Shown in pieces: positions 1,000 through 30,253 of a stretch of 64,000 nucleotides of DNA; position 1 is the first letter of the stretch; the number at the start of each line of letters is the position of its first letter. Source of the stretch: Cyanophora paradoxa CCMP329. Taxonomy: Eukaryota; Plantae; Glaucophyta. Location of the stretch: the NCBI GenBank assembly GCA_004431415.1, contig QPMI01000658.1, positions 62,001 through 126,000 on the forward strand, in the 5' to 3' direction. The notes under the pieces are model-generated. The model was not told the origin of the DNA. It did not search any database and worked only from the letters and a program-made list of their open reading frames with translations. Made by a program: the position numbers and the translations under genes.

Positions 1000-1370
1000 T
1001 TTATAATATATTAACGTACGGTGCTGGTAAGCGTGCGCACGGTACTGGCGAGCCAGGGATTTGCACCCATTGGTCGATTTCCATGTGGTATATCATTCGT
1101 CGGAGTGCTTTAATTGTTTTTACAAAAAACGATTTTTTGAACACAGGTTCTGAATGTGTGTAGTAAGTGTTGCATGCTGGCCGGGAGCCTGGCCCATTAA
1201 TATTAATATTGCTGGGCCATTGCTGGCCCCCATTGCATATTGCTGGGGCTTCCGGGACTCGGGAGGACCGGGCCCGGACTCCGGGAATCCGGATCATCGG
1301 ATCTGGGATCTGGATTCTGGATCCCACGGATATATCTCGATTCCGGGATTTTCTTTCAAGTGCTAGTACT
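1000..1370. repeat. Host interspersed repeat, left half (interrupted by the virus)
   Basis: Aligns with about 37598-37993 (e.g. CACCCATTGGTCGATTTCCATGTGGTATATCATTCGTCGGAGTGCTTTAATTG). Similarity stops at AGTACT 1365-1370 and resumes at AGTACT 30577-30582. Confidence 0.85.
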
Positions 1371-1382: not shown

Positions 1383-1629
1383 GGTCGGTTTGCAGTGAAC
1401 CTCACAGTTAAAACCCCGCATCGCATTAATAGACCTCATCGATAATCAAAGCAATTTACGATCGATTCCTTACCAATGCCCGATAGGAATCGTAAATTGC
1501 TCACTTTTCATCAACCCTCGATCAAAAACCATGACCCCCTACCTATGCCTCTCATATATATCTATCGACTTTATTGATAAATCACATTTTCTCTCTTTAC
1601 CCATGACCCCCTCCCTGTGGTTTTACTGT
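1383..1629 (+). repeat. Left terminal inverted repeat (247 bp)
   Basis: Reverse complement of 30254-30500 with one mismatch seen (1564). Starts GGTCGGTTTGCAGTGAAC. Confidence 0.97.
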
Positions 1630-1663
1630 GAAAATGAATGAAATCAATTATATTTGAATTCAA

Positions 1664-2784
1664 TTACAACTGGTGACGCGGATCCGGACCCTCAGAAAGG
1701 GGAGAGTGGTCATAAACGTAAGGGATAATGTAATTCTCCGCATCTTCTTCAGTAATCGATAGAGCTTTGAAACGGTCACCATCGATTTCAACCTTGATGA
1801 AGAAAGAAGGATACGGGAAGGTCTTCTGCTTTGCCCAGCTCACCTCGTAGATCGCCACACCTCTTTTCTGTGTATTGCTCAGTCGTAAATCGCGTTAAAA
1901 CTGAATATGAAGCTTACCATATTATCCTCACGCTCGAAGATGGGCAGAGGCTTGAGAAGGAGATGGCAGTTCTTCTTGAAATTCTTGAATGCCTCGACAC
2001 ACTGCAAACGATCAGATTGGGCTATCACAGTGAAATGACAGCTTACCGATGTCACACTTGACCAGTTGATTGCGTCCTTCAACCCTTGATCCGTGCTTCG
2101 GAAGATGGTCATGAGAAAATTGATGACCACGAGCTGTTCCAGCTTCGCCCAGATCGTGATCTGCAGATCACGTCAATCGCTAGCATCGCGATTGCAGTGA
2201 GAGACTCACCTTATCGCCCTTTAACCCCTTCGGCTTCGGCTCCGTTTTCGGCTCCGTTTTCGGCTTCGCAGGCGCCGGCTGCGATCGAAAACGTTAATTA
2301 CATCGATTTGCGCATGCGCAGCAACGTGCCTCGGAAGGCCCAGCCTGGGGCTGCGGGGGATCGGGAACCGCAGGGGCAGCGGGGGCAGCGCCATCACTCC
2401 CGCGGTTGCTCGCGCGCTTCGCCTTCCGCTTCTCGGCCTTCTTCATATTCTGCTTCACCTTCTTGATCGTCTGTTCGAAACGCAATCGTGAGTAAATTTT
2501 CGACGCGCAATAAATCAAGCGCAACGAACCAGCTGATCCAGCCGGTCAATTACATCTTCGAGCTGACTCTCCGTCATTTCGAGCCGCTGCTGCTGCTCCG
2601 TGATCTGCTCTCTCTGCCGCTCGATCTGCTGCTGCTGCTCGCGATAACGACGGCGGAGTTCGGCGACATCGAGATCCTCAGCCGTCTGCTCCATAGGTGA
2701 GTCCTCGGACTCCTGGCTATCCGCTGGAGGCGCGGGGGCCTTCGGGGGCGCCTTCGTGGGCGCCTTCCCCTTGCGGTCGCTCAT
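1664..2784 (-). CDS. Spliced 6-exon gene, 288-aa hypothetical protein (N-terminal coiled coil, K/P-rich linker, globular C-terminus)
   Basis: Exons 2784-2530, 2470-2330, 2278-2210, 2160-2047, 2001-1918 and 1867-1664. All five introns are phase 0, 45-59 nt long, with donors GTTCGT, GCACGT, GTGAGT, GTAAGC, GTAAGC and CAG acceptors. Splicing joins the four small ORF-track fragments into one uninterrupted ORF. Confidence 0.85.
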
Positions 2785-3423
2785 CTTTGAGTGCGTGCAG
2801 CTAGGCGATCGAAGGCAGTTAGATACTAGTATCGAGCGCTAGAGCTAATTCGCGATCGCGTTAACGACTAAGAGCCATGCGCCGTCTCTGCCTAAGAGCC
2901 ATCGCCGTCTCGAATTTTTTCATGCTGCAGAACTCATTTTAAATTTGATTGGTCGCCAGTGACGAAATTAAAAGTTGTGATAGTTTAATCAATGTGAGGT
3001 TATAACTTTGACATGTATATATGCATGTAGTAAATTAATTTAACATAGAGTAACCTTTTTCAGTTGAATTCTTTGGAAGAATTAATTATGACTCACCAGT
3101 GGCTCATCGATGATGATTTCTTCATAAATAATCATCAATGACTCACCGACGGCTCACCGGTGAATCATCGATAGATAGCGCTGTACCCAGCAAAGGCTGT
3201 CGTACCCAACCGCGCAGCAGCCCTGCCGCCGAAGAAGCATTTCACGCCCGAGGAGAAGCGCCGGGCAAACACAGAGGCTGCTGCTCGATACCGGCAGCGA
3301 TTGCGCGAGCAAGCTGAACTTGGGCGCCTGTTTCTCTCGGGGGCGCTGACCTCGGACCCACCATCGCCGGCCGCAGCCCAGCCCGTTCAGTTCAGCTCTC
3401 CAGTAGCTACGCAATCGCGCAAC
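2785..3423. promoter_or_regulatory. Divergent promoter region between the two spliced genes
   Basis: AT-rich core. Duplicated ATGACTCACC..GGCTCA units contain TGACTCA at 3089-3095 and 3139-3145; ATTGG (CCAAT) near 2948; duplicated CTAAGAGCCAT(G)CGCCGTCTC at 2868-2911. Confidence 0.5.
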
Positions 3424-4301
3424 ATGGCCGCCCGCGCCCCAGCCCCGCAGTCAGACGTCGACATGGCGACGGCGTCGCTCGCTGGTGTCCAGCTCTCGCC
3501 CGCAGCGGCGGCCTCTTCTGCGCAGCGGAACAGGTGCAATTAACGATTTCCTACACGCCTATGCAGAGCGCGCCCCGAGATTCCCAGCCTGCGTCGACTT
3601 AGCTAACTTCGCGCCCGCGCAGTGCTGCGGACCTGACCACCAAGGAGCAGCTCGTCGTGGCTTACGAAGCGTGCGCCCTGCATCCTCTCTGCGCTCTCTC
3701 TGCGCCCGCGCCGCGCCCCCCGACCCCGCAGAGCAGCCAGATCGCGGAAATGCAGGCCAAGTTTTTCAGCATGGAGGCGAAGCTGCAGGCTAAGGATGAG
3801 GAACTCGCCGCCGTCGGCTCGCAGCTCAACCGTGCCAAGAGCAACAAGGAGAGCTACGAAGCGCTGGCCAAGCAAACCACGATGATGGTGAGCCTCCGCC
3901 CTTTTCCCAAGCTGCCCCCTGAGCTTTGTGCAGAATTTGGGCATCAAGGAGGCGGTGGCGGAGCTGGCGAAGCGCATCCCCGACATCGTCGACAAGCAGG
4001 ACGCGGTGCGCGCTGGCTCTCGCCCCCCTTTAAGCCCCTCAAGGCCTGCTGCAGCTGCTGACCCCCTCCCTTGCCTTAGACCAATGCTACTGCTGCTGGG
4101 GAGGGGGAGACCAACGTCTACCCCCCGATCACCGAGTTGATCGTGCTGACGGAGTTCTGCAAGCTGAAGGGCCTGGACGCCCTCAAGAAGGCAGTGGGGC
4201 TTAACAAGCCCGAGAATTGGGCAGTTGTGATCGCGAAGCTCAAGGAAGCTCGCGAGAAAGCTAGGCTCTGGTACCGCCAGTACAGCGATAAGACCATCTA
4301 A
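3424..4301 (+). CDS. Spliced 5-exon gene, 200-aa coiled-coil hypothetical protein
   Basis: Exons 3424-3533, 3623-3670, 3737-3887, 3934-4005 and 4080-4301 (603 nt). GT-AG introns of 89, 66, 46 and 74 nt with branch-like GCTAAC/GCTGAC. The spliced ORF is continuous (...DLTTKEQLVVAYEA|QIAEMQAK...TTMM|NLGIK...KQDA|TNATAAG...YSDKTI*). Confidence 0.8.
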
Positions 4302-4345
4302 ATATATAAAAATGCATACCCAGTTCGTTTTTTTTGACTTTTCGT

Positions 4346-4933
4346 TTAGATCTCGATAGCTAGCAGTTCAAGACTTGTCATGTTTTCGAGTATCTCATAA
4401 TAAAGTTTAGCCTGATTCTCACTCAATTCGTCCTCGCATTCAAGATCTGCAAACACTTCGCTCTCGGTTCCAATCATACCGGACTCGTCCTCTAGCCTGA
4501 ATCGCTCGAGCTTGAAGCTGGCCTCATCGAATACATACTGATCCCCATCTTCGAGTTGAACTACGATCCTATTCTGCATGTGTTTGGGGAACATATCGCC
4601 GCGAGTCCACACGTATATATTCTCGATTCGTTTAGCGAACCCCTGTTTGCAGATCGCTTCGACGATCCACTGCAATTCATCCTCAGAGAGTTCAAACTCC
4701 CGTGTCTCATCTTCTAGATCAATCACATCCCCCCACGATTCAATATCGAGTGTCCGCAGCCTCTCGTAATCGATGGTCGAAGCATCGACCTTGAATACAT
4801 CCTCCGTGCAACACCATACGTCACTCTCGCATCGCCAGCAGCCGAAAGAGCAGACCGAGCAGCCGATCGAGTTCTCGGACCCGCAGTCCGAGCCACACTC
4901 AGAGCCAGAGTAGTCAGAGTCGTCCGAAGCCAT
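4346..4933 (-). CDS. Hypothetical acidic protein with Cys-rich N-terminus (195 aa)
   Basis: Intact ATG ORF with a CSVC..CWRC..CC cluster; no family recognised. Confidence 0.7.
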   Translation of the reverse strand: MASDDSDYSGSECGSDCGSENSIGCSVCSFGCWRCESDVWCCTEDVFKVDASTIDYERLRTLDIESWGDVIDLEDETREFELSEDELQWIVEAICKQGFAKRIENIYVWTRGDMFPKHMQNRIVVQLEDGDQYVFDEASFKLERFRLEDESGMIGTESEVFADLECEDELSENQAKLYYEILENMTSLELLAIEI

Positions 4934-5452: not shown

Positions 5453-5503
5453 AAATGAATAAAAAACGAAAAACAAAAAAATAAAAAATAAAAATGAAAA
5501 TTT

Positions 5504-5862: not shown

Positions 5863-7230
5863 TTACCTGGTTCGGATCCTAGTACTAGCCCTTATAGCTG
5901 GAGCCTTATCATAGGATGCTACAGCCTCTGCCCCACCGGCTAATTTCTCGGTTCCGGCTACTCTTAGATTCGCTAGCTCCCTTGAAACCCTCTTTGTTCT
6001 CTGGACCCTATCCTCGATCAAGCTGCCCTTTGGGACTGATTCGGCCGGATCTATGCCCTCTCTGTGGATCTGTCTAATTGCTGCGGCCTCCTGCCTCACT
6101 GTATCCACTGTACTTGCGGAAGGCTCAACGATTGCTTCAACTTCCGATATGATCTGCAGCTCATGAGGCTTGAAGATTCGATTCAAAGGTACACCCTGGG
6201 CATCTACGACCTGGATTCCATTCCCGGCCCTTCCTGCAATCTTGTAGACCTCTCGACTGTATCTCTGAGTGGCCCCCTTGTCAAACTTAGACCTAGGCAG
6301 CAAGACTCGAACGAACAGGCCGGGCTTGAATTTCTCGAAGATATCATCAACAATTGCTTTCTTTTTCGATAAAATGAAACTGCGAATGCGAGCCATATCC
6401 TCTAACCTAACATCTATTGGTCGCATACCTATAGTCCTATTAACACTGGAATTATAATTCAGAACAAAGTCCTCTAGCTTATCCATAAACTTGACTGTGT
6501 TGAAAGCGATGCAGTAGTTATTGATCATCGTTTTGAGGGTCAAATGGAATCGATTCATGATGCCTAAACTCGTGTGATCCCCAGCCTGTTTAAACCTATG
6601 CTCGATTCCAAACTCCTGGATCACTGCCTGGAACTCTTTCGCTTTAAACTCGGAACCCAAATCAGTCTCTAACACCCTCATTGGAGCGGGAAGCTCACCC
6701 AATACCTCTCTAAATGCAGTCGCAACACTGACTCCCTCTTTATTCTTTAATTTCTTAGCGTAAGCCCTCCTGCTCGTGATCTCAATAAGAGTGAGTACCG
6801 CAATGTACCCCGCATTGTACTTTCCGTAAGATAAATAGAATATCAGATCGGCCTGGTAGGTCCAGGGTGGAGCTGTGATTGGAATGAATGTGGACTGCGA
6901 TGCTGGGGGTGGCTTCTTGTTAATCTGCATAAACTCTTGCTTTTCTGCAACCTCTTTGACCTCGTTATAAGTAACACTCGGATCCTCTTTCTTCAGCTCC
7001 TGATAGATCGTATGGGGATGCTTGTAACCTGTTTTAGGATCGTACATTCGCCTAACTATTTTATTCGAAGCCGGACTCACGGTTTTAAAAGGGACATCCC
7101 CTACTACATTTACCTTTGCTTCTCTTTTACTAATTCTGCCTTCTACTCTCTCTGTATCTGGGATCGGAATGGGGAGCAGGGTCGTTTCGGTCTCATCCCC
7201 AGCCCCTCGCCTCACTATTTTCGATGCCAT
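5863..7230 (-). CDS. Retroviral-type (rve) integrase of the Polinton/virophage kind
   Basis: YQADL, ITSRRAY, LETDLGSEF, GIMNRFHLTLK, NYNSSVNRTIGMRP and an SH3-like tail (FKPGLFVR...YSREVYKI). First ATG at 7230; the ORF-track start at 7245 is TTG. Confidence 0.92.
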   Translation of the reverse strand: MASKIVRRGAGDETETTLLPIPIPDTERVEGRISKREAKVNVVGDVPFKTVSPASNKIVRRMYDPKTGYKHPHTIYQELKKEDPSVTYNEVKEVAEKQEFMQINKKPPPASQSTFIPITAPPWTYQADLIFYLSYGKYNAGYIAVLTLIEITSRRAYAKKLKNKEGVSVATAFREVLGELPAPMRVLETDLGSEFKAKEFQAVIQEFGIEHRFKQAGDHTSLGIMNRFHLTLKTMINNYCIAFNTVKFMDKLEDFVLNYNSSVNRTIGMRPIDVRLEDMARIRSFILSKKKAIVDDIFEKFKPGLFVRVLLPRSKFDKGATQRYSREVYKIAGRAGNGIQVVDAQGVPLNRIFKPHELQIISEVEAIVEPSASTVDTVRQEAAAIRQIHREGIDPAESVPKGSLIEDRVQRTKRVSRELANLRVAGTEKLAGGAEAVASYDKAPAIRASTRIRTR

Positions 7231-7248: not shown

Positions 7249-10200
7249 CTATTTTTTGCTGCTGTTGCATCCTTGATGAGCCAGCTTGCAGTTCGACTTG
7301 ATGTGAGCCTCTTTATTATTAATCCTATCAACAGTAAGCCTGTACCTTAGATCCTTTGCCTGAAGGGAAAGGGGTTCGGTACACAGAGAGCAGATTCGCT
7401 TCTGCTCCTTGAGCTGCTCAATGATCCACTCGGGTGTAATATAATCATCATCATTATAATCTCGACCCGCTTTCTGATCCTGGCACTTGTAAGCCCGAAC
7501 CTTGGCCTTCAGATGCTCGAAGATCTCGGATTTAGCCTCGAACTTGTGGAGCTTGGTGTAAATGAGAATCTCGCTCAAATCTCGGTTGCGAGTCAGAGCA
7601 GTCCAGAACCACTCAGGAGTAACATGGCAGAACGAGGCCTCACAAACGACAATGCCCGAATCGTAGGTGAGTCCTTGAACACTGTGGCATGTTCCAGCAT
7701 AGGGTAGGTTGAACTTTTCCAACAGAGCAGTGGGGAGAGAGAACTGGGTCCCATCAAACACATCCTCCAAAGTGACCTGGTTCCGATTGATATCGACTAT
7801 GGTATAACTGTAATTAGTGAAAGCCGCTACTTTCTCATCTTTTTTACCTCGGGTCACACAGATATATTCACGACAAACGATTTCGATTCCTTTGAAAAAA
7901 TTGATTCCGTTCACAAGGATCCCCTCGGTTTCGGGGTATATACGTTTATGCATGGTTCGGTTGTACAGGTAAGCCATCTCGTTTCTATAGCATATAGCCC
8001 TGTAGGAATCAGGAATTTCGTTTAGATCAGTTGCAGTTCTGAATCCGTATTTATTTACTATTTCTGTAGGAGCAAGTCCGTTCTCAAAGAGATCGACCTT
8101 GATTGCTTTCAGCTTCTCTCGATCCTCAGGCTTGCGATGCCTCTTGTTGATCATCAGCTGCAGTGTGTTGGGGAAGATGCTTGAGATAGCATCGCTGTAA
8201 TATTGTTTGGGGTCAGCCACAGCAAGAGCATCATTTATGGGAGCGTTTTGGTGGGGGTCTCCATTGCAGTAGAATTTCTTATCCGAATACTTGTTTATGA
8301 ATTTTTTGATCTTTGCAAGGTCCTTTACTTTATAGGCATAGACCTCATCGAATACTACATGGGAAAAGCCTTCCATAAACTCATTGACCTGTGAAGCCGA
8401 TAGGGCCTCTTCACAGGTTTGCTCATTTGAGACTCGCAGACCCAGAACACTGTACAGGGTGGCCACCTCAATGCGGCTTGCAGCTTCGGGCTTCCCCAAT
8501 CTGATGCCCATTTCTTTCAGAGAGCATCGGAACTCGGCCGCTTGTTTGTTGTAGGGGCAAACTATGAGTCCGTTGATGTCATTTTTTAGCAGGTAGACCA
8601 TCAATCCGGTCGACTTTCCGGCTCCTGGAAGCATTCCAAGGGTATTGACATGATTGAACTCATTGTAAACCTTGGTATAAGCGTCCGAATCAAATTCGTT
8701 TCGAAGGCAGAAGGAATTGATATTCGAAAGGGGATCCTCAATTTTAATAGGCTTCGGGAGGGTCCGAATGCGAATGGGGTTCATTGGGGCTTCTTGTTCG
8801 GAATATAGGAGAAGCGACCAATGTTGGCAAAGCTATTACGATCAAAGGGCTTTGAGCTATACCTTCCTTTGATATACAGGCAATCAGTGTGGATTCCCAC
8901 GACCTCGTAACCTTTGCTTTTGAGTTCCTTGTACTTGTCATACATTTCGCTGCGAACTCGATCGTACATTGCGAACTGGATCGGAAGGAACCCGTTAATG
9001 AGATCCTTTTGAGAATCAGTTCTCACATAATAGATGTGGCCATCGAAATCCGAAAGGTTCTTGACCAGAGTATCAGTTTTCGCACCAAAGGTGAATACTT
9101 CCACCATTCCGCCCACCTGCTGGGCATAGATATCAGCCTCGGACTTTTTGCAGAACAACCTGGTCTTGGATCGCTTATCGAGTCGCTTTCCTAGCAGACC
9201 AATCACTTCTACGAGAGTAGCCTTTTTCTCGCGAGGATTCAGGTCGCTTGACATTATTTTCTGGATCAGCCTTTTTGAGGGGTTGCTTACGAAAAATGAT
9301 GGGCGGTTGTAGCCTGTAATAGTCACGAGATCCTTGATGTCCTCCCAGTGACGCTTCAGAGTGTACCCTGTGATCAAGTTCGAGTAGGATGCAGCCTTAT
9401 AACGATCGAGCAGGATCTGAATTCCTGGATCGCAGATGCGGGATTTGTATCCTACTGGCTCATCATCAATATCCTCTTCGTATGTATCCACTCCTTGCAT
9501 GTAGGTTCCAGTATCGAACTGCTGCACATCAATCACATAGAAGGTATCCTCCTCGATTGGGTGACCATCATAGGGGCGGATACCATCGAAAATATTGAAT
9601 ACTGGAAGCTTCTCGATCTTGCTAATAACAGCTGGGTAGCATTTGCACATATCCACTGCAGTGTATTTAGTTCCTGGCTTCGGCTTAATGAAATAGCCAT
9701 TCAGAGCAGAGCGATTGTAATTAATAAGGGCTGTTCGGAAGCCCTCCTCGTACTGTGAAATTGTGTCGGTGTTAATCAGGGCTTCCTTGAATTCTTGACG
9801 AATGGATTGGACCTTTTTGTAGTAAGCCTCAGTCTCGAACTCACACTGTACCATGTGATCAGAAACCGAGGGATTAAATACGGAAAAGAATATTCCACTC
9901 GCTTTGAAGATCAGGGTTTTGATCTGTCCCCTTTCATTCCGAGCTTTGGTTCGTATTGAAGGCGATCCAAGAAAGTGAACAGAAGCTCATCCATGGACCC
10001 AGTGTAAACGATTCGGACTGTAGCTTTCTCCTTATCAGCTTTCAATCCCATGGTCGCAATCTTGAGCAGATCAGCAGGTGTGTGGGCGAACATATCGTAT
10101 TGTTTGGTCTCTGTGATTTGATAGGATGAGTTCAGCGAAGCTTCGGTTGGGTTTTCGGTTTCCAGGTCCATTTTCTTGAAATTCTTCTCGAGGGCTTTGA

Positions 10201-11389
10201 TGTTATCGTTGTAGCAGTAAACGTGGTTATTGTGTACCATGAAATTCATGCATTGCGGATGCAGATCCTTATTAACGGGCATCTCTCCCTGTGGGTATCT
10301 GTACTTGAGCTTGTTATCCTCCGAATAAACACGGAATCCCAGCCTGCAACGATCCGCGAATTTTCGGAGCTGCCTCAGAGTGAGGGACATAGAGGCTCCC
10401 TCAGTATATTCCTTTCCGTGGAAAAATCGATACAGACCCTCGTAGGTCATCTCAATGTCCTTGTACTTCCTGTTTCTGTGACAAGCTTCCATTGAACGAG
10501 AGTACAATGAGATCAGCATATCGTAGACACAGGCATTCGATTTTCCGGAAGCAGGCTTGATGATTAATTCCTCGATCGATTTCGCCTCGGGATTGAGATC
10601 GTAATTAATGTACTGGCTCACAGCTGCGGTACATCGCATCGATTCTTCGAGTTCCTCATCGAGAAATTCTTCTTGAACGGCTTCCTGGGCTTCCTCCTCA
10701 GCCTGAGCCTCCACCAGAACGATTTCGTGAATTTCCGCAAAATAATCGTACCAATGCTGAATTTCGCTTGCAAGTCGATCAGCCCTAAATACGGTCTCAA
10801 CAACATACAGGAAATCAGCGACCATATAGTGTCTCTGGTTCAGCACGAACCTTGTAACGAAACCATCACGGGCAATTTGTCGCAGCATCCTTACCGGAAT
10901 TGTGATCGAAGCCCTTTTTAGGGGTCGGTACATGCGACCTTCAAAGCGGAGTGGCTGATCCCTCGCACGACCAGTGGGTTCAGCATTAATTTCGGCCCAG
11001 AGCTTGAAAGTGACCCGGACAACAGCATCGTCGGGAAACTGGGCAATCTGCCGGAAAAATTGATTCAGCTGCCTGTTCTCTCGGGGTCTCGGAGGTTCAG
11101 CCTCAATGGCCCCAATGCGACCGACCTCTCGATCAAATGCAGCCTGGCGAACCCCCAGCAGCGATTGCAGGGTATATCCCTTTGCAGGTCGCTCTGTATC
11201 GAAAATTGACTGAATGTTCTTGAGGTACAGCTCGAGCATGGTTTCGGGAACCTTGGAAGTTCCTGAGAATTTGCGCAATAATGCATCAGCGGTTCTCTTG
11301 GTGAGCAGGCTCCGCTGGATACCGAGGTTAATCAATTCGACCGCTTTCGCTTTCAAGGTTTTTCTTCTCTTGTAACTTGCGCGAGGCAT
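7249..11389 (-). CDS. polB: Fused replicase: N-terminal (terminal-protein/vOTU-like) region + family B DNA polymerase + SF1 helicase + HNH-like Zn nuclease, about 1380 aa, split into 3 ORFs by two 1-nt homopolymer frameshifts
   Basis: PolB motifs VDMCKCYP, KATLVEVIGLLGK, GIHTDCLY. SF1 motifs GMLPGAGKST, VVFDE, GDPHQ, YAGTCHSVQGLT, TALTR. C-terminal CSLC..VDRINNKEAH..N..CN. Adding one G near 9930 and one C near 8788 gives a single 4143-nt ORF. Confidence 0.88.
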
Positions 11390-13472: not shown

Positions 13473-14330
13473 TTACCTTCGTTTAACTTTTAGCAACATT
13501 TTCTTTTTGTTTGGCGAAATTTGGGAAAGATTCGGAATACCTTCAAGCTCTTGTTCAAATTTCGACAAAGTTTTGCAAATTGTTTTTGAATCCTTGCAAG
13601 TTGGTTCTTTTTGGGCTTCACCCTCTTTTGCCTTGCGTTTCTTTTCCTCATACAATTGCACCCCCTTGTGGAACCTCGGGAAATTGAAGTCCCTCACCAG
13701 TGTTGCTTTATCTACATACATGGATGTATCATACCCAGCGGAAGAAACCACAAGGTACTGATAAGAATGCACATACTCCTTGAAAAGCTTGAAGAAATCA
13801 TCTTTGGGACCTGTGTTATATTCTTCCTCGATTGCGAGCAGCTCTAAGCGATTGCTGGCATTGAGAATGCAAGTGTACTCAGTGTTCACTCGAATTGTAC
13901 TGGAAAGCTTTCGCATTTTTTGGGTAATAACCATGATGCTTATATGGGAATGGCGACCCCTCGTGTACAGGGATGCAATCATTTTATCTTTATGGAGATC
14001 CACATGCTCATTGTCGATTAAATCATCCAAAACAATTAATAACTCATTCACTTTTCCGCCTGCAGCAATCTTTTGCTGCCTTGCATCCAGCAGCTTGCCT
14101 ATGAAAACGGGATCCCAGCCATCGAGTACCATTGGGGTGACTGGATTCCAGAAATTATTGAACTTTGTACCAGTCACCACAATTACGGCATCGATCTTTT
14201 TTGCATCGTGAAGCTGTTTAATCCAGTACAGACAAGCTTCTGATTTACCAGTGTTGGAGCGCCCAATGAAGATTGCCCTGAAAGGGGGTTCTATCATGGA
14301 GAAGGCATCAAACTCTTCTAGTTCGGACAT
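13473..14330 (-). CDS. A32/FtsK-like DNA packaging ATPase
   Basis: Walker A GRSNTGKS, Walker B LIVLDD, TRGRH, TQ..LSSTIRVN. Confidence 0.93.
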   Translation of the reverse strand: MSELEEFDAFSMIEPPFRAIFIGRSNTGKSEACLYWIKQLHDAKKIDAVIVVTGTKFNNFWNPVTPMVLDGWDPVFIGKLLDARQQKIAAGGKVNELLIVLDDLIDNEHVDLHKDKMIASLYTRGRHSHISIMVITQKMRKLSSTIRVNTEYTCILNASNRLELLAIEEEYNTGPKDDFFKLFKEYVHSYQYLVVSSAGYDTSMYVDKATLVRDFNFPRFHKGVQLYEEKKRKAKEGEAQKEPTCKDSKTICKTLSKFEQELEGIPNLSQISPNKKKMLLKVKRR

Positions 14331-14380: not shown

Positions 14381-15706
14381 TTAAGCACTGACGCGACGAA
14401 TACCATCGGCTCCAACAATGAGGATATTGTGAGCGAGAGCCATGCATTGGAGGTACATTTTTTGATAGCTTCCGCCTGCGTACCATTCGGTGTTACCAGG
14501 ATCACCTGCGGCAGTAATTGCATTGAATCCAAACACAATATCAAAGGCTGATGTTCCTGTGGCATCAACATAGCCTGTTTGCTCCTGGTTAAGGAGGGCA
14601 GCTTTGCCATTGCCAGCACCGAAGAAGATACCTGAAAGAGCAGGAAAAGCCAAGTCATCAGCAGAGAGAGCAGCGCCATATTTATCTTGGAGTTCCGATG
14701 AAGCGACCAAAAGAGGTAGTTCAGTGTTGGAGTAGAGGCGATTGTTGTTCAGCTCAACATAGAAATTGACAGCATTGGTACGAAGCGCAGTTGGACGAAG
14801 GACTGATGCAGATCCATTATTAGTTCGCACTTTAGCGAGTTGTCGAACTGAGAATGCAAGAGTGTGGATTAAACCAGCGCCTGTAAGCTGAGAAAGGTTG
14901 ACACGAGCGCCAGAGGCAGTAGGGGTGAAATCAGTGTGAAGGAAGCCAATCTCATTATAGGGGATGGCAATGCCAGTGGATTTGACTCTGGCAATTGTTT
15001 CAGATACAACCGCTTCATCAGCATTGACAACCTTGCAGACAAGTCTGGGCTTGAGGACTTTGAGAGAGCTTCCAGCAATTGCAATGTCTGTTTTGCCATC
15101 TGTGTCTTCAATAATACCATCAGTTACATTCTTGAACTCAATTTCAACAACTATCTCAGAGTTCATAGCGCAAAGTGGGAACATAGCCTTCTCAAAGGGT
15201 GAAGGCAGATCGATCTCATAGGTTCCACCGTTTGTATTGCCATGATAGTTAGTTCCTACTACTCCACCAACATAACGAAGGCGTCTGTCTAAATCACCGG
15301 TCTCGGTTGTGAGAAGGAAATATTGGGTGACGAAATCCTCTGGGACAACATAGCGGAAAGCACCATGGGAAATCTCCATGCGCTTGATGAGCGAACCGAT
15401 TACACGGAGGTAACCAGTAGAGGCAGCAGCATTGCCTCCTGAAAGGTTGCTTTCACCGAACACCATTGGGTTCAGATCGAGTTGAAGGGCTATGCCATTG
15501 AGGAAATGGTAGCGAGGGATCTTGAAAACGACTCGGTTGCCAAGGGCATTGGAAGGCTCGGTATCTGGAGCAACCTGGACTCGAAGGGGCTTGGTTCCTG
15601 AAGAGGTACCGATGACAAGGGATTTGTTTAGGAAGAAATCCTTGTAATCATCGGTTGTAAGCATAGACTTGAGGGTTGGGCGCTGGAATTGCGAATTTGT
15701 TTCCAT
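14381..15706 (-). CDS. Major capsid protein, double jelly-roll, nucleocytovirus-like (441 aa)
   Basis: LGNRVVFKIPR..FLNGIALQLDL, SLIKRMEISHG, YEIDLPSPF..MFPLCAM..EIVVEIEF and terminal MALAHNILIV.ADG resemble NCLDV MCP signatures. Lies between the ATPase and the pentons. Confidence 0.85.
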   Translation of the reverse strand: METNSQFQRPTLKSMLTTDDYKDFFLNKSLVIGTSSGTKPLRVQVAPDTEPSNALGNRVVFKIPRYHFLNGIALQLDLNPMVFGESNLSGGNAAASTGYLRVIGSLIKRMEISHGAFRYVVPEDFVTQYFLLTTETGDLDRRLRYVGGVVGTNYHGNTNGGTYEIDLPSPFEKAMFPLCAMNSEIVVEIEFKNVTDGIIEDTDGKTDIAIAGSSLKVLKPRLVCKVVNADEAVVSETIARVKSTGIAIPYNEIGFLHTDFTPTASGARVNLSQLTGAGLIHTLAFSVRQLAKVRTNNGSASVLRPTALRTNAVNFYVELNNNRLYSNTELPLLVASSELQDKYGAALSADDLAFPALSGIFFGAGNGKAALLNQEQTGYVDATGTSAFDIVFGFNAITAAGDPGNTEWYAGGSYQKMYLQCMALAHNILIVGADGIRRVSA

Positions 15707-15761: not shown

Positions 15762-16675
15762 TCAATAGAAATTCATTTGCGGAGGGGCATCGTAGGTTTC
15801 GATTTCGAAGGTGAAATAATGCTGCCAGGCTCCAAAATCGAGAAGCTTCCCATCGTGATCAATAAGTTTGATTGTCAAGCGATCAAACGACTTTAATTCT
15901 CTAAATTCTCGGACAAGGGGACAGTAACTGATGTATCGAAATGGTAAATTGATCCATGCTCAAGCTCTTGAGGGATCGGGATTCTCATGAAGTAGCCATC
16001 CACATATTTATTAACTGACCGGATAAATGGAGCAAATTCATCGATGTAGAGCCAGAGCATGGATTCTGGTGTTTCATCTCCACTGGTGAAGCCTCGAATG
16101 CGTCTATTCAGTGTGATGCCACCAGAGACTAAGAATGTATCCGAGGCAGGAGGAGTAAACAGTTCACCGGAATAGGCAATGATCGATTTAAAACCAAAGA
16201 ACTGGAGTTTTCGATTTACAGTGGACCTGAATCGGGATTGCTTGAGAGAATCAGCTGAAGCAAGTGTGAATCGGAACCAGAAATTAGCATTACTGAAAAA
16301 TTCATAGCATTTTACAGTATGATTGTACCGGCATTTTATATAGATGCCTCCAAAACTTGAGACACGAGCGGCCTCGAGTAGTTCTGTTATCTTCTCCGCC
16401 ACAGAATCTTTTGTGTAGTGGGCTTTGGGAATTGTTATGGTAATAAAGCCTGAATCAGCGGATGTGACCGAAAAATAGATGTCCATTCGATTCACATCTG
16501 CTCCAGTTTTATCAATATCTTTGGACACATTGGAAATGACATTGGGAACTGTTGCCTGAACGAGCCGAACCGATTTTACATTATCGTAACGCCTGGGTAA
16601 GGTAATTACATAGCTGTTCGGTTCTGTGTAATCGGGGTCTCGCTCATCGCTAGAGAAGCTTAGATATTCTTTCAT
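15762..16675 (-). CDS. Minor capsid protein/penton 1 (DUF5901-like); 1-nt frameshift near 15918
   Basis: True start MKEYLSFSSDERD..PNSYVITLPRRYDNVKSVRLVQATVPN. The conserved C-terminus FDRLTIKLIDHDGKLLDFG..HYFTFEIET lies in the shifted frame after a C4 run. Confidence 0.85.
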
Positions 16676-16691
16676 CTTACTATTATAAAGT

Positions 16692-17540
16692 ATGAAAAGA
16701 ATCACGATAAATTGCGACAGCAGGGATCTCGAAGATGGGGTTCTGCATCTCAAAAATCGCATCAGCAATATAAGGAAATTCCGAATCCTCTCAGCGGAAA
16801 TCCCCAACAGCTGCTATGTTGTTCCACCGGACCAGAAACTCACAATCACTGCCCTTGGCAGCGATCAACCCCTGAGCATTCCAGCCTTTCATTTTCTGGA
16901 TCCTGTCCCAAGTATCAACGATTATTATACTCTTAATTCTGAAGGGAGAAGGATTCCACTAGATATTTCGTTGGGAACAGATTCTATTCTGGGATTTAAT
17001 GGGGGCAGCTTTAACCCATTAGGAATTCAGGCATATAAAGTTCTCTTAGATGTAGGGATGAGTCGTCTTGTATTCACATCGCCCAGCAATCAATTCACAA
17101 TTCAAAGCTCAGATCGGGAACTCTGTGACTGTATTGGCATTGAACCAGATACTATCTACCAAAGCACAACCGAAGCAAGACCAATACATGTACCAGGGAT
17201 TGAAGACCGCTACCAACTGGTTTGCCCCAAAATGATCGACTTCAATGCACTGGCTTACATTTACTTAGATGTAGAGGAGCTTAGACCATTTATGAAATTT
17301 AATGCAGCAACTAGCAGGCAAAACCCTGCGGATGATTCCTATTTATTAAGGATCCAAATGAATTCCGATTTTGGTAAATATTCGTTTTACAGTGAGCCTA
17401 GCTCGAGTGTTCCCTTTGTGAATGTCACAACCCCTTTGGACCTAGATAAGCTCACAATCTCGCTCAGAAAATGGAGAGGGGACATTGCGGATCTAAATGG
17501 ACTCTCTTACTCATTCCAGCTGGAGCTGCTCATTGATTAG
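16692..17540 (+). CDS. Minor capsid protein/penton 2 (282 aa)
   Basis: ITINCDSRD..L..RISNIRKFRILSAEIPNS, YIYLDVEEL, LDKLTISLRKWRGDIADLNGLSYSFQLEL. Confidence 0.85.
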   Translation: MKRITINCDSRDLEDGVLHLKNRISNIRKFRILSAEIPNSCYVVPPDQKLTITALGSDQPLSIPAFHFLDPVPSINDYYTLNSEGRRIPLDISLGTDSILGFNGGSFNPLGIQAYKVLLDVGMSRLVFTSPSNQFTIQSSDRELCDCIGIEPDTIYQSTTEARPIHVPGIEDRYQLVCPKMIDFNALAYIYLDVEELRPFMKFNAATSRQNPADDSYLLRIQMNSDFGKYSFYSEPSSSVPFVNVTTPLDLDKLTISLRKWRGDIADLNGLSYSFQLELLID

Positions 17541-19012
17541 GCATAATAGCCCTCGAAATCAATTCTGCATGCAGAGGCTCCCTCTGTACTGAGGGGCCAA
17601 ACAAGCAGGGTTCGAATGGCCTTGGGATTCGCGAGAACATGCTCGTTTTCACCAGCAGTATTTGTAAACACTCTCGTTGAGCCACCTTCAGTGTAGGGAG
17701 ATAAAGATGATACACCAGGAGTGGCTTGATAATCGATCTCAAACGTTTTAATATAGTTGCCATTGGCAGCAGGTTTCATTTTTATAGAGGAAAGCAAGAA
17801 TAATCGAGGGAAATCGATTCGAAGGAAATTCCCTCCCGATCTTGTTCCCTGTGGGGGATTTGGGAATCCCACCCAGCCAGTAGCATTGGACCAACGAGCA
17901 TTGGAAGCAGTTCCAAAATCAGCGGAAAAAGCACTGTTCTCCAAAGGAACCCAATTGGACTCCGGAGGGGCTGCCAGATCGGTACAGCCACTGAGATTCT
18001 GAATGGGAACGTCCCCTTCTGTCATGTTCATGGTCAGAATGGAATACATAGCATTGAAGTAAGTCTGCTGGGCCGAAACAAAGCCGAGAGCTTCATTTTC
18101 GAGGAATTGAAGGTGGCTCGTGGTAATATTATCGAGGACCATCTTGCTTTGGGGCAGAGGAACACTCAGCTTATAATAGCGATCGTAGTTCTGATCATCG
18201 TTTCTGGGTAATAATTCGAGCAGCTTTTCGTGGGCATTCAGATCGCTCGATTCCAGCAGCATGCTCAAAATGGGAGATCCACTCGCACCTAGGATCCACT
18301 GAACAACCCCCCAGGTCTTCATAGTATCATAGGAATAACCGGCAGAGGCTTTGTCCAAGTCCTGAATGTGACCAGCAGTCACAGAGACAACTATGAATTC
18401 CTCCTCACACGAATTCCCATACAGTTTCCTTGCAAATGTGTAGCCACAGACACCGGGAGAATTATTTCCGCTCATGCAGCCATCGATTAAACAGTATGTT
18501 CTCCCAGCGACTGTGACCTGTTTGGGTTCGAAATAGGTTGGGGCAGCCGAAGTAGCCCTTGCAGCATCTCGAACCAGCATTCCATTGATCCCCTCATCGT
18601 TGCTGGTAATAAATACGGGAGACATCAGAACTGTATCAAATGCAGTCACCACAGTCGGTTTGTATAAATCAGCCATTGTTGCGGATCCGCAAAGTTCCAG
18701 GGCAACAGCCTCCAGATTGGTGGCTTCGTATTTGGGTCGCTGCACAATCGATGAGAGAACTCTGGGGTTTGCGAATATCTGCGGAAGCTTCGATTTATAG
18801 AGAGCCAGAATATCGGTGGCAGTGTATTTCGGACTGCCATCAGGGGCTTTGATATTCAATAGGAGCGCAATTAATCCACCTGTGGATGTTCCCGCAAAAA
18901 CATCGAACAGCTGCTGGATTCGTTTTCCTGTTTGAGCTTCAATCTGGGCCAGTATGGCAGCCTCAATAATTCCTCGAGAACCCCCACCACTCAATGCCAG
19001 GATGCTTTTCAT
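17537..19012 (-). CDS. Patatin-like phospholipase with C-terminal F5/8-type C (discoidin-like) domain
   Basis: LSGGGSRG oxyanion motif, GTSTG nucleophile, ATSAAPTYF, IDG. C-terminal FLRIDF..LSSIK..YIKTFEIDY..CRIDFEG. Confidence 0.93.
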   Translation of the reverse strand: MKSILALSGGGSRGIIEAAILAQIEAQTGKRIQQLFDVFAGTSTGGLIALLLNIKAPDGSPKYTATDILALYKSKLPQIFANPRVLSSIVQRPKYEATNLEAVALELCGSATMADLYKPTVVTAFDTVLMSPVFITSNDEGINGMLVRDAARATSAAPTYFEPKQVTVAGRTYCLIDGCMSGNNSPGVCGYTFARKLYGNSCEEEFIVVSVTAGHIQDLDKASAGYSYDTMKTWGVVQWILGASGSPILSMLLESSDLNAHEKLLELLPRNDDQNYDRYYKLSVPLPQSKMVLDNITTSHLQFLENEALGFVSAQQTYFNAMYSILTMNMTEGDVPIQNLSGCTDLAAPPESNWVPLENSAFSADFGTASNARWSNATGWVGFPNPPQGTRSGGNFLRIDFPRLFLLSSIKMKPAANGNYIKTFEIDYQATPGVSSLSPYTEGGSTRVFTNTAGENEHVLANPKAIRTLLVWPLSTEGASACRIDFEGYYA

Positions 19013-19052
19013 TTACCATACATTACAAAAATTTTCCCTGGTCATTATAATA

Positions 19053-19469
19053 ATGGATCTGAATTGCTTGAAATATCAAGGCTACCACGTTTTTCTGGAT
19101 TATATCACCGACCCAGTCACAGAGACCCCAGAGGAGTTTGCTGAATGGGTCACCCTTGCATTGGATCTTGCCATTAAGACGAATGGGATTCGTATAGTCC
19201 ATCAGAAATCCTGTGTTTTCGATGGGTCGGTCAGCCCCCCAGGATTTGCGATTGGGTTCCTGCTGGACGAATCGCATGTCACCGCTCACTCATACAGTGA
19301 TCGGGGTCTGCTGGCTCTGGACATATTTACCTGTGGAAAGGACGCCCAGCTGAAAACAATGGGAATAGCTCACGATATTGATGCCATTCTCAAAGAAAAA
19401 TTAAACGTTCAAAAGTGGGATATGCAAGTAATGCAAAGATTCCCCTACAAAGCTCCTTACAATAAATAA
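19053..19469 (+). CDS. speD: S-adenosylmethionine decarboxylase proenzyme (prokaryotic SpeD/SpeH type), 138 aa
   Basis: G.HVFLD, PPGF..FLLDESHVTAHSY...LALDIFTCG with the E|S self-cleavage site. Likely start is the ATG at 19053. Confidence 0.9.
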   Translation: MDLNCLKYQGYHVFLDYITDPVTETPEEFAEWVTLALDLAIKTNGIRIVHQKSCVFDGSVSPPGFAIGFLLDESHVTAHSYSDRGLLALDIFTCGKDAQLKTMGIAHDIDAILKEKLNVQKWDMQVMQRFPYKAPYNK

Positions 19470-19486: not shown

Positions 19487-22400
19487 ATGTCGTTTTTGAA
19501 TCCACGACCGGATATTCCGCAGGCTAAAGTTTCAGTCCCTGAGAAAGAGCCGATTGATCTGGTAAACCCAGAGATCAGAGGGTCGTTGAGAATTGAATTC
19601 AATGGGGATCGGGAGGATCCCATTAGTGGAACACCCAGCAGACCGGCCGCATTGCAGCTGGTAAATGTTGAGCCAGGAGATAATAAATTGGGAATCGATT
19701 TTCTGCTCGATGATAACGAGCGGAATAGGGTTGCAAGCATCCAAGCAACTCGCCAGATACCCAAAACAGTTAAATACAATCGAAGGAACATACCCAAATC
19801 CTTTGATAGGGGTCGATTGAATTTCTTTGTCCAGGATGAAACGGGTCACCAGAATGCAGCCCTTCGAATTTCGGATAATAGCACCCTAATTGCTGGTGTA
19901 TCAAATCGAAAGACAAAGGTTGAAATAGCCCACGATCTTTCAGCGAGCAATGTTTTTACGAGCAACCTGGAAGTGAACACAATCAAGGCAGGAACATTAT
20001 CGACAAGCAACCTTTTGACTTCTAATATTTCAGTAAATAGATTCGTAATCAAGGATGGCAGCTATGTTCCACCAATTGCAGAGGGGACCTTCACTGCAGA
20101 TTCAACAAAGCCCATGCTGGAGATTTACCAGGATGGAGAATTGGTGGGAGCGATTGGCTCAAATGCTCCAGTGGTTCGATCGATCGCCCTGGATAAAACC
20201 ACCATATCGATGGCAGAGGAGATCCCAGTATTCAACACAGAAAAGCAAGCGCTTCGAACTGGGCATTTGCATATCACAAGGGAGAACATAAACAATCTGC
20301 TGGGAGAGGATATTGTGAAAGAGTTTTTGAACTTCAAGCTAGCCAAAAATACGAAAGATACGAGCCAGGACACCACCCTCACTGCCCACAGCACCGAGAT
20401 TGCAGCCCTGCAATCCGAGATCAATACTTTATTCGCTGCAGATGGAGTTCTTGCGATCACATTGGCAAGCATTTTGGCAAAGAGGAACATTTACCCAGCA
20501 ACCGATAATAAGTATAGAATTGGTCTTTCCAATCTCAGGTGGATGGAAGTAAATGCAAACAAAGCAAATTTTAATAGCCTGACTCTCATCAACAATGCAG
20601 ATTCAAAAGCTACAATTACTTTCGATGGGAAGATTGGAACCCAAACCTATACGAACACAAAGAGTTTTACGAAGACTGAAACTGCCACCACTCAAATCCT
20701 CGGTATCTACATGGTAGCTTACCTTCCCCTCCAACCTATTCCTTTACATGGGCTGAATTTGGTATTACGGATCCAGCCGAGCTTCCAACTGCCACGATAT
20801 TCGATTTGACAGATTACTTTGATCAAACAAACACTGTTATCAACGATCAGGCATACATAACGAATGTTACAATGACAGGATTTGATGTGACTTTCAACAT
20901 GCCCATGCCTGAAATGGTAACCCCAATCACTAAAGTAGCAAATTCTGCCACATTCAAATTTAATGTAACTGCTGTACATAATGTTCCAATATACGGAGAA
21001 CCCTACATCAAAATAAATAGCAATATCCGGGCAGCAAGTATCTTCCCCCAAGATCAGAGCCGCACTCTAGGATCAGCATCCAGCAACTGGCAGAGTGTGT
21101 ACTCCAGCAATGTGAACACAAACAAAATCCTTATGACCAAAACCAACCTATCCACTATCAGCTCTGTAAACAGTTTTTTGGCGGATACAACTCCAAGCAT
21201 CTCATACCACAATCTGAAAGGTTCAAGCAATTTATCCCAAACAGGATCGAAGCAATTTGGTTATGCTGATCTACAGAGCTATAATATGAACAATCAATAC
21301 AGAGTGAATGGCACCCCTCCCCATGTGTATAATATTACTTTTGCCACCCCATTCCTATCAGCCCCCACAGTGACTTTACAGGATACAAATACATACTTCA
21401 AAGCAACAATTGTGAATGGAATAACCTATCCTGCTACAACAACCACATCCCCTTTCAGTGTGACTAATGTGACAAATACAGGATTCACATTGGTTGGCAC
21501 AACCACACTTCACCAAGACATAAATTTGTACCCTGCAGGTTTGTATTTCAATCAAGGCACCCCTCCTTACACAATCGGCTGGACAGCAGTGGGCAATGTA
21601 GCTCAATACACTCCAGAGGATCGCCTTCGGATCACTTATCCAGTTGACACAGATGCTCTCTTTGTCAAAACAATCAATGGGGCAGTCTTTGGGCAATCCG
21701 GTGGAAACACAGTGTTCACCACAAATATCACCAACACCAGCAATTATTTGACCTTTAATCCTGATAATCTCCGCACCCAGAACCTTGTGGTGGGCAGTAC
21801 TTTTGCTCAGAGAGAACAGACAATTACCGTAAAAGTTCCTTACCACTACAAATTAGAGAATCCAGTGAAGTATGGCTACCTTTATGACAAGAAATGGGCT
21901 GCGTTTGTACCTTACCAATCAGAGAGTGTTAACATGTCGTACCCAAGGGTGGACATTGATGCCAATCAATTTATGAATGTGAACTGGAAGGACTTTTTCA
22001 CCCTCCAGTCCTCCACAGATGGCCTGATGATTTATTACGATTACAAAAACAACACATTTGACAGCTTCTTTAATTCTTTCACGTTTAATGGATCCACAGG
22101 AACATTAGCAACCAAAAATCAAAATAGGTATATCCAAACAGACTTTGAATGGACACTGACATTTACATTGCGAGATAGGTACACACCCAATACCACTCTG
22201 CCCCTGGGAATGTGGAGCAGCTGCAATATTTATGTACAGAACACATTATCCGCCAATAAATTCTACGAGGGTGGATTCGCAAATGAAGGAACAAGACTGC
22301 TGTCTCGAAATGGTCTCCTACAGAGCTTTTCAGCAACCCCACTGCCCAGCTTGGTGAACAACAGCACATATGACACCACTTGCAATGTTTGGGTATGCCA

Positions 22401-22995
22401 TGGGATTGCCCATCCACCTGTGTCTACAGCCCTTTTCAATTACCTGCAGTCCAAGTATGGCACAATATCAGGAAGCGCAACCAGAGGGGCAGCAGATGCA
22501 CCTATTGTCTTTAAAAGCGGTTACACCCAGCCGTTCACTGCTGAAGGTGGCACAGGTGGACCCACTGACCCAACCAACCCAAAAGATGAACCCGATCCAA
22601 CAGACACCCCAACCAATCCAGATAATCCACCCTCAAAAGAAACACCTAAAACGACTGACCAACCAACCGGGGGTCCAGATATAGGTCGCATAGTTGGTAT
22701 CGTTATAGGCTCGCTAGCTGGTGGGGCTGGAGCTTTGTATGCGGTCTATATATTTTTGAGATTCGTGATTGCTGCAGGGTCAGCATTTGCAACAACCTCG
22801 GCAACTGTCACTGAAACAGCAGCTGGGGCTGTTGCTGTCCAAGCTACTGGGGCTGAGGGTACCACAGGCTCAATTATACGAAATGGCAGAGGACCCAAAA
22901 ACAAGGCACCATCAGGGGATGCACAGTTCATGAAAGAGATTGCGAGAAGAGAAGGTAGAGCAAGTAAGGATGAAACAATTCCAAATAATTTATAG
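19487..22995 (+). CDS. Fibre-like structural protein, about 1169 aa after a 1-nt frameshift correction near 20695, with C-terminal P/T-rich stalk and hydrophobic helix
   Basis: Phage-fibre motifs IYPATDNKYRIGLSNLRW and IFPQDQSRTLGSASSNWQSVY; gp53/H-lectin-like ITFATPFLSAPTV..VTNTGFTL..WTAVG; TM-like IVGIVIGSLAGGAGALYAVYIFL at 22690-22758. Adding one A joins the two ORFs into 3510 nt. Confidence 0.75.
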
Positions 22996-23010
22996 AAGCT
23001 TAATTATAAA

Positions 23011-30117: not shown

Positions 30118-30119
30118 AT

Positions 30120-30230: not shown

Positions 30231-30253
30231 CCGTATAGATACAATAGAATCTT

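What the first reader, a model, noticed from the sequence alone, without database searches (positions are those of the whole stretch)
1664..4301. Two divergent genes with nine spliceosomal introns inside a Polinton-like virus: a possible nuclear/provirus programme separate from the intronless core
Seen: immediately inside the left TIR, a 6-exon minus-strand gene (five phase-0 introns, one with a GC donor, AG|GCACGT) and a 5-exon plus-strand gene splice into clean 288- and 200-aa ORFs. The ORF track shows only fragments. Every gene from 5504 to 30117 is intronless and tightly packed. Known: splicing needs nuclear Pol II transcription, whereas virophage-like elements are transcribed by giant-virus machinery and PLV/virophage genes are usually described as intronless. 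Inference: a two-programme genome, with a host-transcribed cassette active in the integrated state (maintenance, immunity, sensing or anti-giant-virus effectors) and a core switched on separately. The alternative is captured host DNA or a nested transposon, but I see no TIR or TSD around the cassette.
Basis: partly seen in the sequence, partly recalled or inferred. Interest (0 to 1): 0.92.

Follow-up and report, generated by a model that had tools for sequence, protein, structure and literature searches.

The report
Spliced cargo genes in algal provirus
A Polinton-like virus integrated in an algal genome carries, just inside its left end, two genes predicted to be split by nine host-type introns (one is cut out in a public assembly of a near-identical copy), likely swappable cargo read by the host nucleus, a layout already described in nematode Mavericks but assumed absent in protist viruses of this group.

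Summary
A 29-kb TIR-bounded Polinton-like element (rve integrase, A32 ATPase, capsid-like protein) carries gene A (6 exons, 288 aa) and gene B (5 exons, 200 aa). A contig from a probable RNA run skips exactly A's intron 1; B's model equals a public gene model labelled Cyanophora paradoxa. Eight introns remain predicted. The region is a GC-rich 4.2-kb slot between left TIR and integrase that also holds an intronless gene C and appears mosaic among sibling copies. Nematode Mavericks have the same intron-bearing cargo slot, and a giant endogenous virus already shows intron-marked latency genes, so neither layout nor idea is categorically new; new is the case in a protist PLV, a group described as intronless. 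A strict two-programme split is unproven: a 10-nt motif lies upstream of B, C and a core replication ORF, and probable-RNA contigs also cross the intronless right end. The scan noted spliced Polinton genes and cargo on other genomes. New variant of a known kind; interest 0.5.

The parts
1383..1629 (.). left terminal inverted repeat (extends with mismatches to 1648); holds an AATAAA on the minus strand at 1575-1570, 89 nt past gene A's stop
   Evidence: alignment; motif list
30254..30500 (.). right terminal inverted repeat
1365..1370 (+). AGTACT, repeated at 30577-30582; single copy at the matching place (37988) of a related repeat; candidate 6-bp target duplication, but 12 and 76 nt outside the TIRs
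1664..2784 (-). gene A, 6 exons, 288 aa; Pro/Ala-rich N-terminus, coiled coil, C-terminal part of no known family
   Evidence: no relatives
2471..2529 (-). gene A intron 1 (59 nt, GT-AG), skipped in a contig of run X16; a contig of X15 (same study) ends exactly at 2530
2279..2329 (-). gene A intron 2 (51 nt, GC-AG), predicted
1868..2209 (-). gene A introns 3-5 (2209-2161, 2046-2002, 1917-1868), predicted
2785..3174 (.). shared upstream region of A and B: AAATTTGATT at 2941, CCAAT-like box, TGACTCA at 3089 and 3139, TGAATCA at 3161
3175..3423 (+). 83 stop-free codons in B's frame without ATG; bZIP-like basic region starting at 3256 (KRRANTEAAARYRQR), no leucine zipper
   Evidence: (bZIP_2 E 0.0018; 22.2 bits against cut-off 22.3 for the 40-aa piece)
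3424..4301 (+). gene B, 5 exons, 200 aa; long predicted helix (residues 39-132) and small helical C-terminus; four predicted introns
4346..4933 (-). gene C, intronless, 195 aa, acidic with Cys cluster; two 52-nt upstream repeats carrying AAAATTTGATT
   Evidence: variants
5863..7230 (-). rve integrase
   Evidence: E 3.3e-10
7249..8784 (-). superfamily 1 helicase
8781..11389 (-). two ORFs in overlapping frames, likely one frameshifted replication gene (polymerase-like by position only; no profile hit)
13473..14330 (-). A32-like packaging ATPase
   Evidence: E 2.1e-9
14381..15706 (-). likely double-jelly-roll major capsid protein
   Evidence: Atlas features 0.98 with Capsid_N / Capsid_NCLDV clusters; low recognition value; fold failed
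15762..17540 (.). two divergent penton-like ORFs (the minus one frame-broken near its end)
   Evidence: weak
17537..19469 (.). patatin-like lipase (minus) and S-adenosylmethionine decarboxylase (plus)
19487..29799 (+). fibre-like module ending in a Peptidase_S74 chaperone domain
30118..30232 (+). strong hairpins after the last gene (z -9.3)

Best explanation
[quoted passage not shown] Mechanism: host RNA polymerase II likely reads them from a shared divergent promoter on the nuclear copy (inferred from splicing); the host spliceosome removes the introns (shown for A intron 1 in a near-identical copy); A likely ends at a poly(A) signal inside the TIR (inferred). The slot is likely reshuffled by recombination among sibling elements, which swap 5' halves, promoters and whole genes (inferred from contig breakpoints). 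The products are predicted coiled-coil proteins with no known relatives; their most likely role is to act on the host nucleus or on the provirus's own expression, B possibly as a DNA-binding factor if its upstream basic region is translated (untested). Their being readable while integrated follows from their host-like build and need not be a dedicated latency programme.
For: Spliced joint at A intron 1, absent from the DNA run. B model identical to an independent public model. All 5 differences of X1's 734-nt contig over B fall in the 74-nt intron 4. Position: 4.2 kb between left TIR and rve. Composition: GC3 0.70/0.82, CpG o/e about 1, against GC3 0.26-0.58 in core ORFs. Belongs to the element family: DNA contig 1600-2122 joins TIR and A's 3' half at about twice the depth of the rest of the slot, with a loose end at 2122; further variants break away at 3350, 4454, 4672, and a 90%-identical B-C junction exists. 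TIR contig depth 618 against about 40 over most of the slot hints that most siblings lack a close copy (the tool warns depth is no copy number). No 9-11-nt inverted or direct repeat at the slot's edges. Same layout described in nematode Mavericks (10.1101/2022.07.12.499685).
Against: No host (or any) homologue of A or B was found, so host origin is not shown; the queries were single exons or exon pairs for A. The 'host-like' comparison is with flanking retrotransposon ORFs, not cellular genes. Only 1 of 9 introns is shown, from one study and from a copy with 3 differences and a different upstream region. The paralogous last exon of B has 12 replacement and 7 silent codon changes among the 19 codons listed (table cut), so constraint on B looks weak. 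Whether the variant pieces other than A's 3' half lie in TIR-bounded elements could not be seen; no genome is held. The shared AAATTTGATT motif ties B and C to the core more than passive cargo would predict.
Confidence: 0.58

Rival explanations
1. Dedicated latency or switch programme (first reader, sharpened): the slot is expressed from the provirus while the core is silent, and B is a bZIP-like regulator that binds TGACTCA sites in the shared promoter and gates reactivation, as spliced bZIP switch genes do in gammaherpesviruses (recalled).
For: Splicing shown for A. bZIP_2 basic region E 0.0018, the only match to the recalled signature in six frames of 64 kb; TGACTCA twice within 60 nt upstream, 7 in the whole window. 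A 31-nt GT-AG intron (3160-3190, site score 10.6, within the 4.7-16.6 of the nine) would join ATG 3138 to this frame without a stop. CpG o/e 1.0-1.3 in the slot, 0.27-0.37 in the fibre module. Precedents: punuivirus latent genes are intron-enriched; one 'sentinel' gene is transcribed in Tetraselmis PLVs.
Against: No zipper; no in-frame ATG; score just under the Pfam cut-off; Atlas best bZIP cluster only 0.77; PDB best bZIP E 3.9; upstream GC3 0.65 against 0.82 in B. TGASTCA is not enriched window-wide (35 of 100 shuffles reach 7) and the two sites look like one duplication. Probable-RNA contigs also cover gene C variants and cross the right TIR. A switch should be conserved across siblings; the slot looks variable.
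Confidence: 0.2
2. Early-gene module of a nucleus-replicating virus: all genes are read by host polymerase II, the slot plus the replication genes form the early class, and A and B are old viral genes that gained introns during long residence.
For: AAATTTGATT occurs 4 times, each upstream of and in the sense of B, C (twice) and the replication ORF; 0 of 300 element-only shuffles reach 4. CpG o/e stays near 1 in parts of the replication block. No homologue outside the species' own copies, as for many viral orphans.
Against: The motif was picked after looking and two copies are one duplication; it also resembles the mimiviral early promoter AAAATTGA used by the PLV PgVV, which points to giant-virus transcription instead; the nine introns share no repeat that would mark recent introner insertion (read); GC3 of A and B is far from the replication genes.
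Confidence: 0.14
3. Functionless passenger: host DNA or a decayed nested element that entered this lineage of copies after integration and is transcribed at background level.
For: Weak constraint on B's paralogue; nest of retrotransposons around the element; three frame breaks in the core suggest decay or assembly error.
Against: Both frames intact over nine junctions; A's stop lies 16-35 nt from the TIR and a second copy shares this junction; 2 of 3 differences in the spliced copy are silent; no bounding repeats.
Confidence: 0.08

Closest known systems
Cargo region of nematode Mavericks (wasp/krma; Widen et al., bioRxiv 10.1101/2022.07.12.499685; passages and section 11 read)
   Same: [quoted passage not shown]
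   Different: Here a glaucophyte-labelled PLV without detectable pPolB or protease; cargo are orphan coiled-coil proteins, not proteases or kinases; host origin and horizontal transfer not shown
Punuivirus latent module (bioRxiv 10.64898/2026.10.09.758095; passages read)
   Same: Intron-bearing, host-like genes beside intronless structural genes in an integrated algal virus; the two-programme idea
   Different: A giant virus with 506 genes and measured expression classes and 6mA; here a 29-kb PLV with no expression classes measured
Tetraselmis PLV 'sentinel' gene TVSG_00024 (PMC9356565; passages read)
   Same: A gene proposed to be read from an otherwise silent integrated PLV
   Different: No introns were considered there (the authors state viral genes have none); discoidin-like protein, unrelated to A or B
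Endogenous PLVs and virophages of protists (PMC10120064, PMC8547959, PMC12220804; passages read)
   Same: TIRs, rve integrase, A32 ATPase, capsid, lipase, S74 fibre chaperone; PLVs of Cyanophora are mentioned in PMC12220804
   Different: Described as intronless and annotated with prokaryotic gene callers; only group I introns are reported in the passages found
Introner insertions in dinoflagellate polintoviruses (PMC12166617; passages read)
   Same: Spliceosomal-type introns inside Polinton-like proviruses
   Different: There repeated intron-making transposons land after integration; here nine dissimilar introns confined to two terminal genes
bZIP transcription factors (Pfam bZIP_2)
   Same: Basic region with Asn and Arg eight residues apart
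   Different: No zipper follows; not shown to be translated

Membership tests
Polinton-like viruses (Polisuviricotina) | double-jelly-roll major capsid protein | tested here: met
   features 0.98 with Capsid_N/Capsid_NCLDV clusters, low recognition value; no Pfam or PDB sequence hit; single-sequence fold failed
Polinton-like viruses (Polisuviricotina) | A32/FtsK-like packaging ATPase | tested here: met
   Pox_A32 E 2.1e-9
Polinton-like viruses (Polisuviricotina) | single-jelly-roll penton | tested here: inconclusive
   two weakly related ORFs beside the capsid gene (E 0.006, DUF5901 E 0.076)
Polinton-like viruses (Polisuviricotina) | 15-40 kb linear genome with TIRs and an integrase | tested here: met
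   29.1 kb, 247-nt TIRs, rve
Polinton-like viruses (Polisuviricotina) | 5-6 bp target-site duplication | tested here: inconclusive
   AGTACT brackets the insert but 12 and 76 nt outside the TIRs
Maverick/Polinton in the strict sense | recognisable protein-primed DNA polymerase B | tested here: not met
   no Pfam, PHROG, NCBIfam or PDB polymerase hit for 8781-11389; SF1 helicase present
Maverick/Polinton in the strict sense | adenovirus-like cysteine protease | tested here: not met
   no such hit among the 19 element ORFs scanned
Maverick-type cargo region | 2-5 kb between left TIR and integrase, high GC, genes with introns | tested here: met
   1630-5862; GC 0.55-0.59 over 2001-4000 against about 0.45 in the core; splicing
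Maverick-type cargo region | low conservation among sibling elements | tested here: inconclusive
   contig breakpoints and depth in one DNA run; no sibling elements could be read
Maverick-type cargo region | genes taken from the host | tested here: inconclusive
   host-like GC3 but no homologue found
Maverick-type cargo region | horizontal exchange between species | not testable with these tools
   no related loci in viral or metagenome collections
bZIP transcription factor | basic region N-x7-R/K | tested here: met
   (signature recalled)
bZIP transcription factor | leucine zipper in register after the basic region | tested here: not met
   read from the translation: two turns of hydrophobic residues, then Pro/Ser/Ala-rich sequence
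bZIP transcription factor | region is translated | tested here: inconclusive
   no in-frame ATG; candidate 31-nt intron; public model starts downstream
Punuivirus-type latent module | intron genes expressed before virus production, with own marks and promoter class | not testable with these tools
   only contigs available; shared motif with the core argues against a clean promoter split

The most novel reading that the evidence does not exclude
The left-end slot is a host-transcribed, spliced control module of a protist Polinton-like virus: B is a zipper-less bZIP-like factor, made through a 31-nt mini-intron or a non-AUG start, that binds TGACTCA sites in its own divergent promoter and sets latency or reactivation, a herpesvirus-like switch missed in PLVs because they are annotated with intron-blind gene callers.
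Probability: 0.1. Interest if true: 0.85.

Novelty: new variant of a known kind. Interest (0 to 1): 0.5.

Why it matters
Three surveys state that endogenous PLVs or virophages of protists have no introns, two of them as the ground for intron-blind gene calling (PMC10120064, PMC9356565, PMC8547959). A spliced gene pair in a glaucophyte-labelled PLV shows that such genes can be missed, and finding them in the same left-TIR-to-integrase slot as in nematode Mavericks suggests a general cargo position across Polinton-type viruses. It gives a concrete handle on an open question, which machinery transcribes PLVs and what an integrated copy makes while latent, in a culturable alga with many public DNA runs. 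It matters less if the slot is only passive cargo.

Tried and rejected
No genome held, so siblings could not be read. No listed holder is on record as RNA; 6 of the 10 runs guessed as RNA and 1 of the 14 DNA runs were laid. No contig bridged the other eight introns, and most of 5.2-21 kb had no cover in four probable-RNA runs; contigs show presence only, so this is not evidence for a silent core or against splicing. Homologue searches: A exon 6 none among 11 candidates; A exons 4-5 three hits, all repeat proteins judged spurious; B last exon only its own model; B upstream region none among 2883 candidates. Related loci: none for capsid, ATPase or TIR in viral and metagenome collections. Folds: B pLDDT 53, no viral match under E 0.001; capsid pLDDT 28. 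Full-length A was not searched or folded. Splice-chain score rejected as sole evidence. Sigma-70 scan irrelevant. Nested transposon rejected for lack of bounding repeats. Nine literature searches showed no report of spliced genes in a protist PLV cargo slot or of a PLV bZIP; the Koonin 2024 review was not held, and supplements of the PLV catalogues, which may list this element, were not read.

Full report
The element. Inverted repeats at 1383-1629 and 30254-30500 bound a 29.1-kb block of lower GC than its surroundings. It encodes an rve integrase, a superfamily 1 helicase, an A32 ATPase, a patatin, an AdoMet decarboxylase and a fibre ending in Peptidase_S74 (7 of the 19 element ORFs scanned had a Pfam hit). 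The 441-aa ORF at 14381-15706 groups with NCLDV-type capsid clusters by language-model features (0.98, low recognition value); its single-sequence fold failed. No polymerase B or cysteine protease was detected. It is a Polinton-like virus, not a Maverick in the strict sense. The only database protein matching gene B is labelled Cyanophora paradoxa, a glaucophyte alga. The flanks are retrotransposons and repeats; AGTACT at 1365 and 30577 brackets the insert and occurs once at the matching place of a related repeat, but lies 12 and 76 nt outside the TIRs.

The observation. Gene A splices to 288 aa over five phase-0 introns, one with a GC donor; gene B splices to 200 aa, identical to the public model P0001. 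A contig of run X16, RNA by the tool's guess, skips 2471-2529 with CT..AC ends and 102 letters on the shorter side, while the DNA run X1 reads through; a contig of X15, same study, stops exactly at 2530. The spliced copy differs at three letters (two silent, one Ile to Leu) that X1 lacks, and an X16 contig over A's start has another upstream region, so the transcript comes from another strain or copy. Eight introns stay predicted. A blind splice-chain search recovered four of A's five introns exactly and three of B's four; A beat 1000 of 1000 shuffles and B 987 of 1000, but 2 and 16 of 194 window-strands elsewhere scored as high. All five differences in X1's 734-nt contig over B fall in the 74-nt intron 4, which fits an intron but could be one conversion tract.

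The slot also holds intronless gene C. B's frame is open for 83 codons before its ATG and contains a bZIP-like basic region (Pfam bZIP_2, E 0.0018; 22.2 bits against a cut-off of 22.3 for the short piece), the only match to the recalled signature in the window, with TGACTCA at 3089 and 3139. Against reading much into it: no zipper, no in-frame ATG, Atlas 0.77, PDB E 3.9, no window-wide enrichment of the site. A 31-nt intron from ATG 3138 would supply a start; it is untested and shorter than the other nine. The core has three frame breaks with overlapping open frames of 64-127 nt, most simply single-base shifts; for two a plausible intron also fits.

Is the slot part of the element? In X1 a contig joins the TIR to A's 3' half at depth 76 against about 40 over B and C, with a loose end at 2122; other variants leave the window's sequence at 3350, 4454 and 4672, and a B-C junction 90% identical exists (tables cut). 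The TIR contig has depth 618. The tool warns that depth is no copy number; taken as a hint, most siblings do not carry this slot in close form and its genes are mosaic. No repeat of 9-11 nt bounds the slot. A's stop is 16-35 nt from the TIR, with AATAAA inside the TIR. A and B have GC3 0.70 and 0.82 and CpG o/e near 1; core ORFs have GC3 0.26-0.58; flanking retroelement ORFs 0.75-0.90. No homologue was found for any piece of A or B. B's paralogous last exon keeps its frame but has 12 replacement to 7 silent codons among those listed.

Two programmes? Splicing implies nuclear polymerase II for A (established). That the core needs a giant virus is not shown; the abstract of a 2026 preprint says the replication strategy of most PLVs is unknown. 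For a difference in regime: CpG o/e falls from 1.0-1.3 in the slot to 0.27-0.37 in the fibre module, and a strong hairpin follows the last core gene (z -9.3), as in mimiviral terminators (recalled). Against a clean split: AAATTTGATT lies upstream of B, C (twice) and the replication ORF (0 of 300 element shuffles reach 4; chosen after looking); probable-RNA contigs cover gene C variants, and in three studies (X17, X18, X19) contigs of 1.6-1.7 kb run from the element's intronless right interior across the TIR into another flank. Contigs cannot rank genes or prove silence.

Comparison. Widen et al. describe for nematode Mavericks a 2-5 kb region between left TIR and integrase with high GC, low conservation and intron-bearing genes, read as host-derived cargo (passages and section 11): the same layout. 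A punuivirus preprint shows intron-enriched latency genes beside an intronless virulence programme in a giant endogenous virus (passages). Tetraselmis PLVs transcribe one proposed sentinel gene (passages). Protist PLV and virophage surveys state that these viruses lack introns (passages); a catalogue that mentions Cyanophora PLVs reports only group I introns (passages); introners land in dinoflagellate polintoviruses (passages); intron-keeping, transcribed KDM4-like genes occur in Amoebidium giant-virus inserts (passages). Passages of four more papers added the PgVV early promoter and nothing on spliced PLV genes. Nine searches found no report of this in a protist PLV; supplements were not read. 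Earlier notes of this scan describe spliced Polinton genes and intron-bearing cargo on other genomes; none for this stretch's relatives.

Verdict. Real, partly RNA-backed, and best read as a Maverick-type cargo slot in a protist PLV (0.58). A dedicated latency switch is possible (0.2; the specific bZIP-like version 0.1), an early module of a nuclear virus less so (0.14), a functionless passenger unlikely (0.08). New variant of a known kind; interest 0.5.

Noticed in passing
window 1383-30500: CpG observed/expected falls stepwise along the element: about 1.0-1.3 in the left slot, 0.7-1.0 in the replication block, about 0.7 in the capsid block, 0.27-0.37 in the fibre module, with TpG/CpA excess there; modules may have had different methylation histories.
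   Followed up: partly
window 30254-30500 and inward: Contigs of 1.6-1.7 kb in three probable-RNA runs of three studies cross the right TIR from the element's interior into a flank unlike this window's: some sibling's right end is likely transcribed through its TIR.
   Followed up: partly
window 4336-4454: A 591-nt contig in probable-RNA run X19 shares only the 3' end of gene C and has a stop at 4420: another gene uses the same 3' end in a sibling slot.
   Followed up: partly
window 9854-9911, 15762-15893, 20809-20872: Three reading-frame breaks in core genes; assembly error, decay, programmed frameshift or intron not told apart.
   Followed up: partly
window 11468-11483 and 12031-12046: Exact 16-nt repeat AAAAAATGACTTAAGG upstream of the replication ORF and of the 131-aa ORF; candidate promoter.
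   Followed up: partly
window 11582-11977: 131-aa basic ORF whose N-terminal helix weakly resembles B's upstream basic region (11 of 27 identical, E 0.013).
   Followed up: partly
window 18954-19469: S-adenosylmethionine decarboxylase inside a PLV, between the lipase and the fibre module.
   Followed up: no
window 23011-29799: 2262-aa fibre with 26-aa (78-nt) repeats and a C-terminal S74 chaperone.
   Followed up: no
window 40906-57559: LTR retrotransposon with identical 283-nt LTRs 16.4 kb apart and an unusually long 1374-aa ORF overlapped by a 1393-aa antisense ORF.
   Followed up: no
window 31700-37600: Minus-strand retroelement-like block with strong AT skew and a weak RT match.
   Followed up: no
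window 1438: A DNA contig shares only the outer 55 nt of the TIR and then diverges: a second element family with related ends.
   Followed up: no
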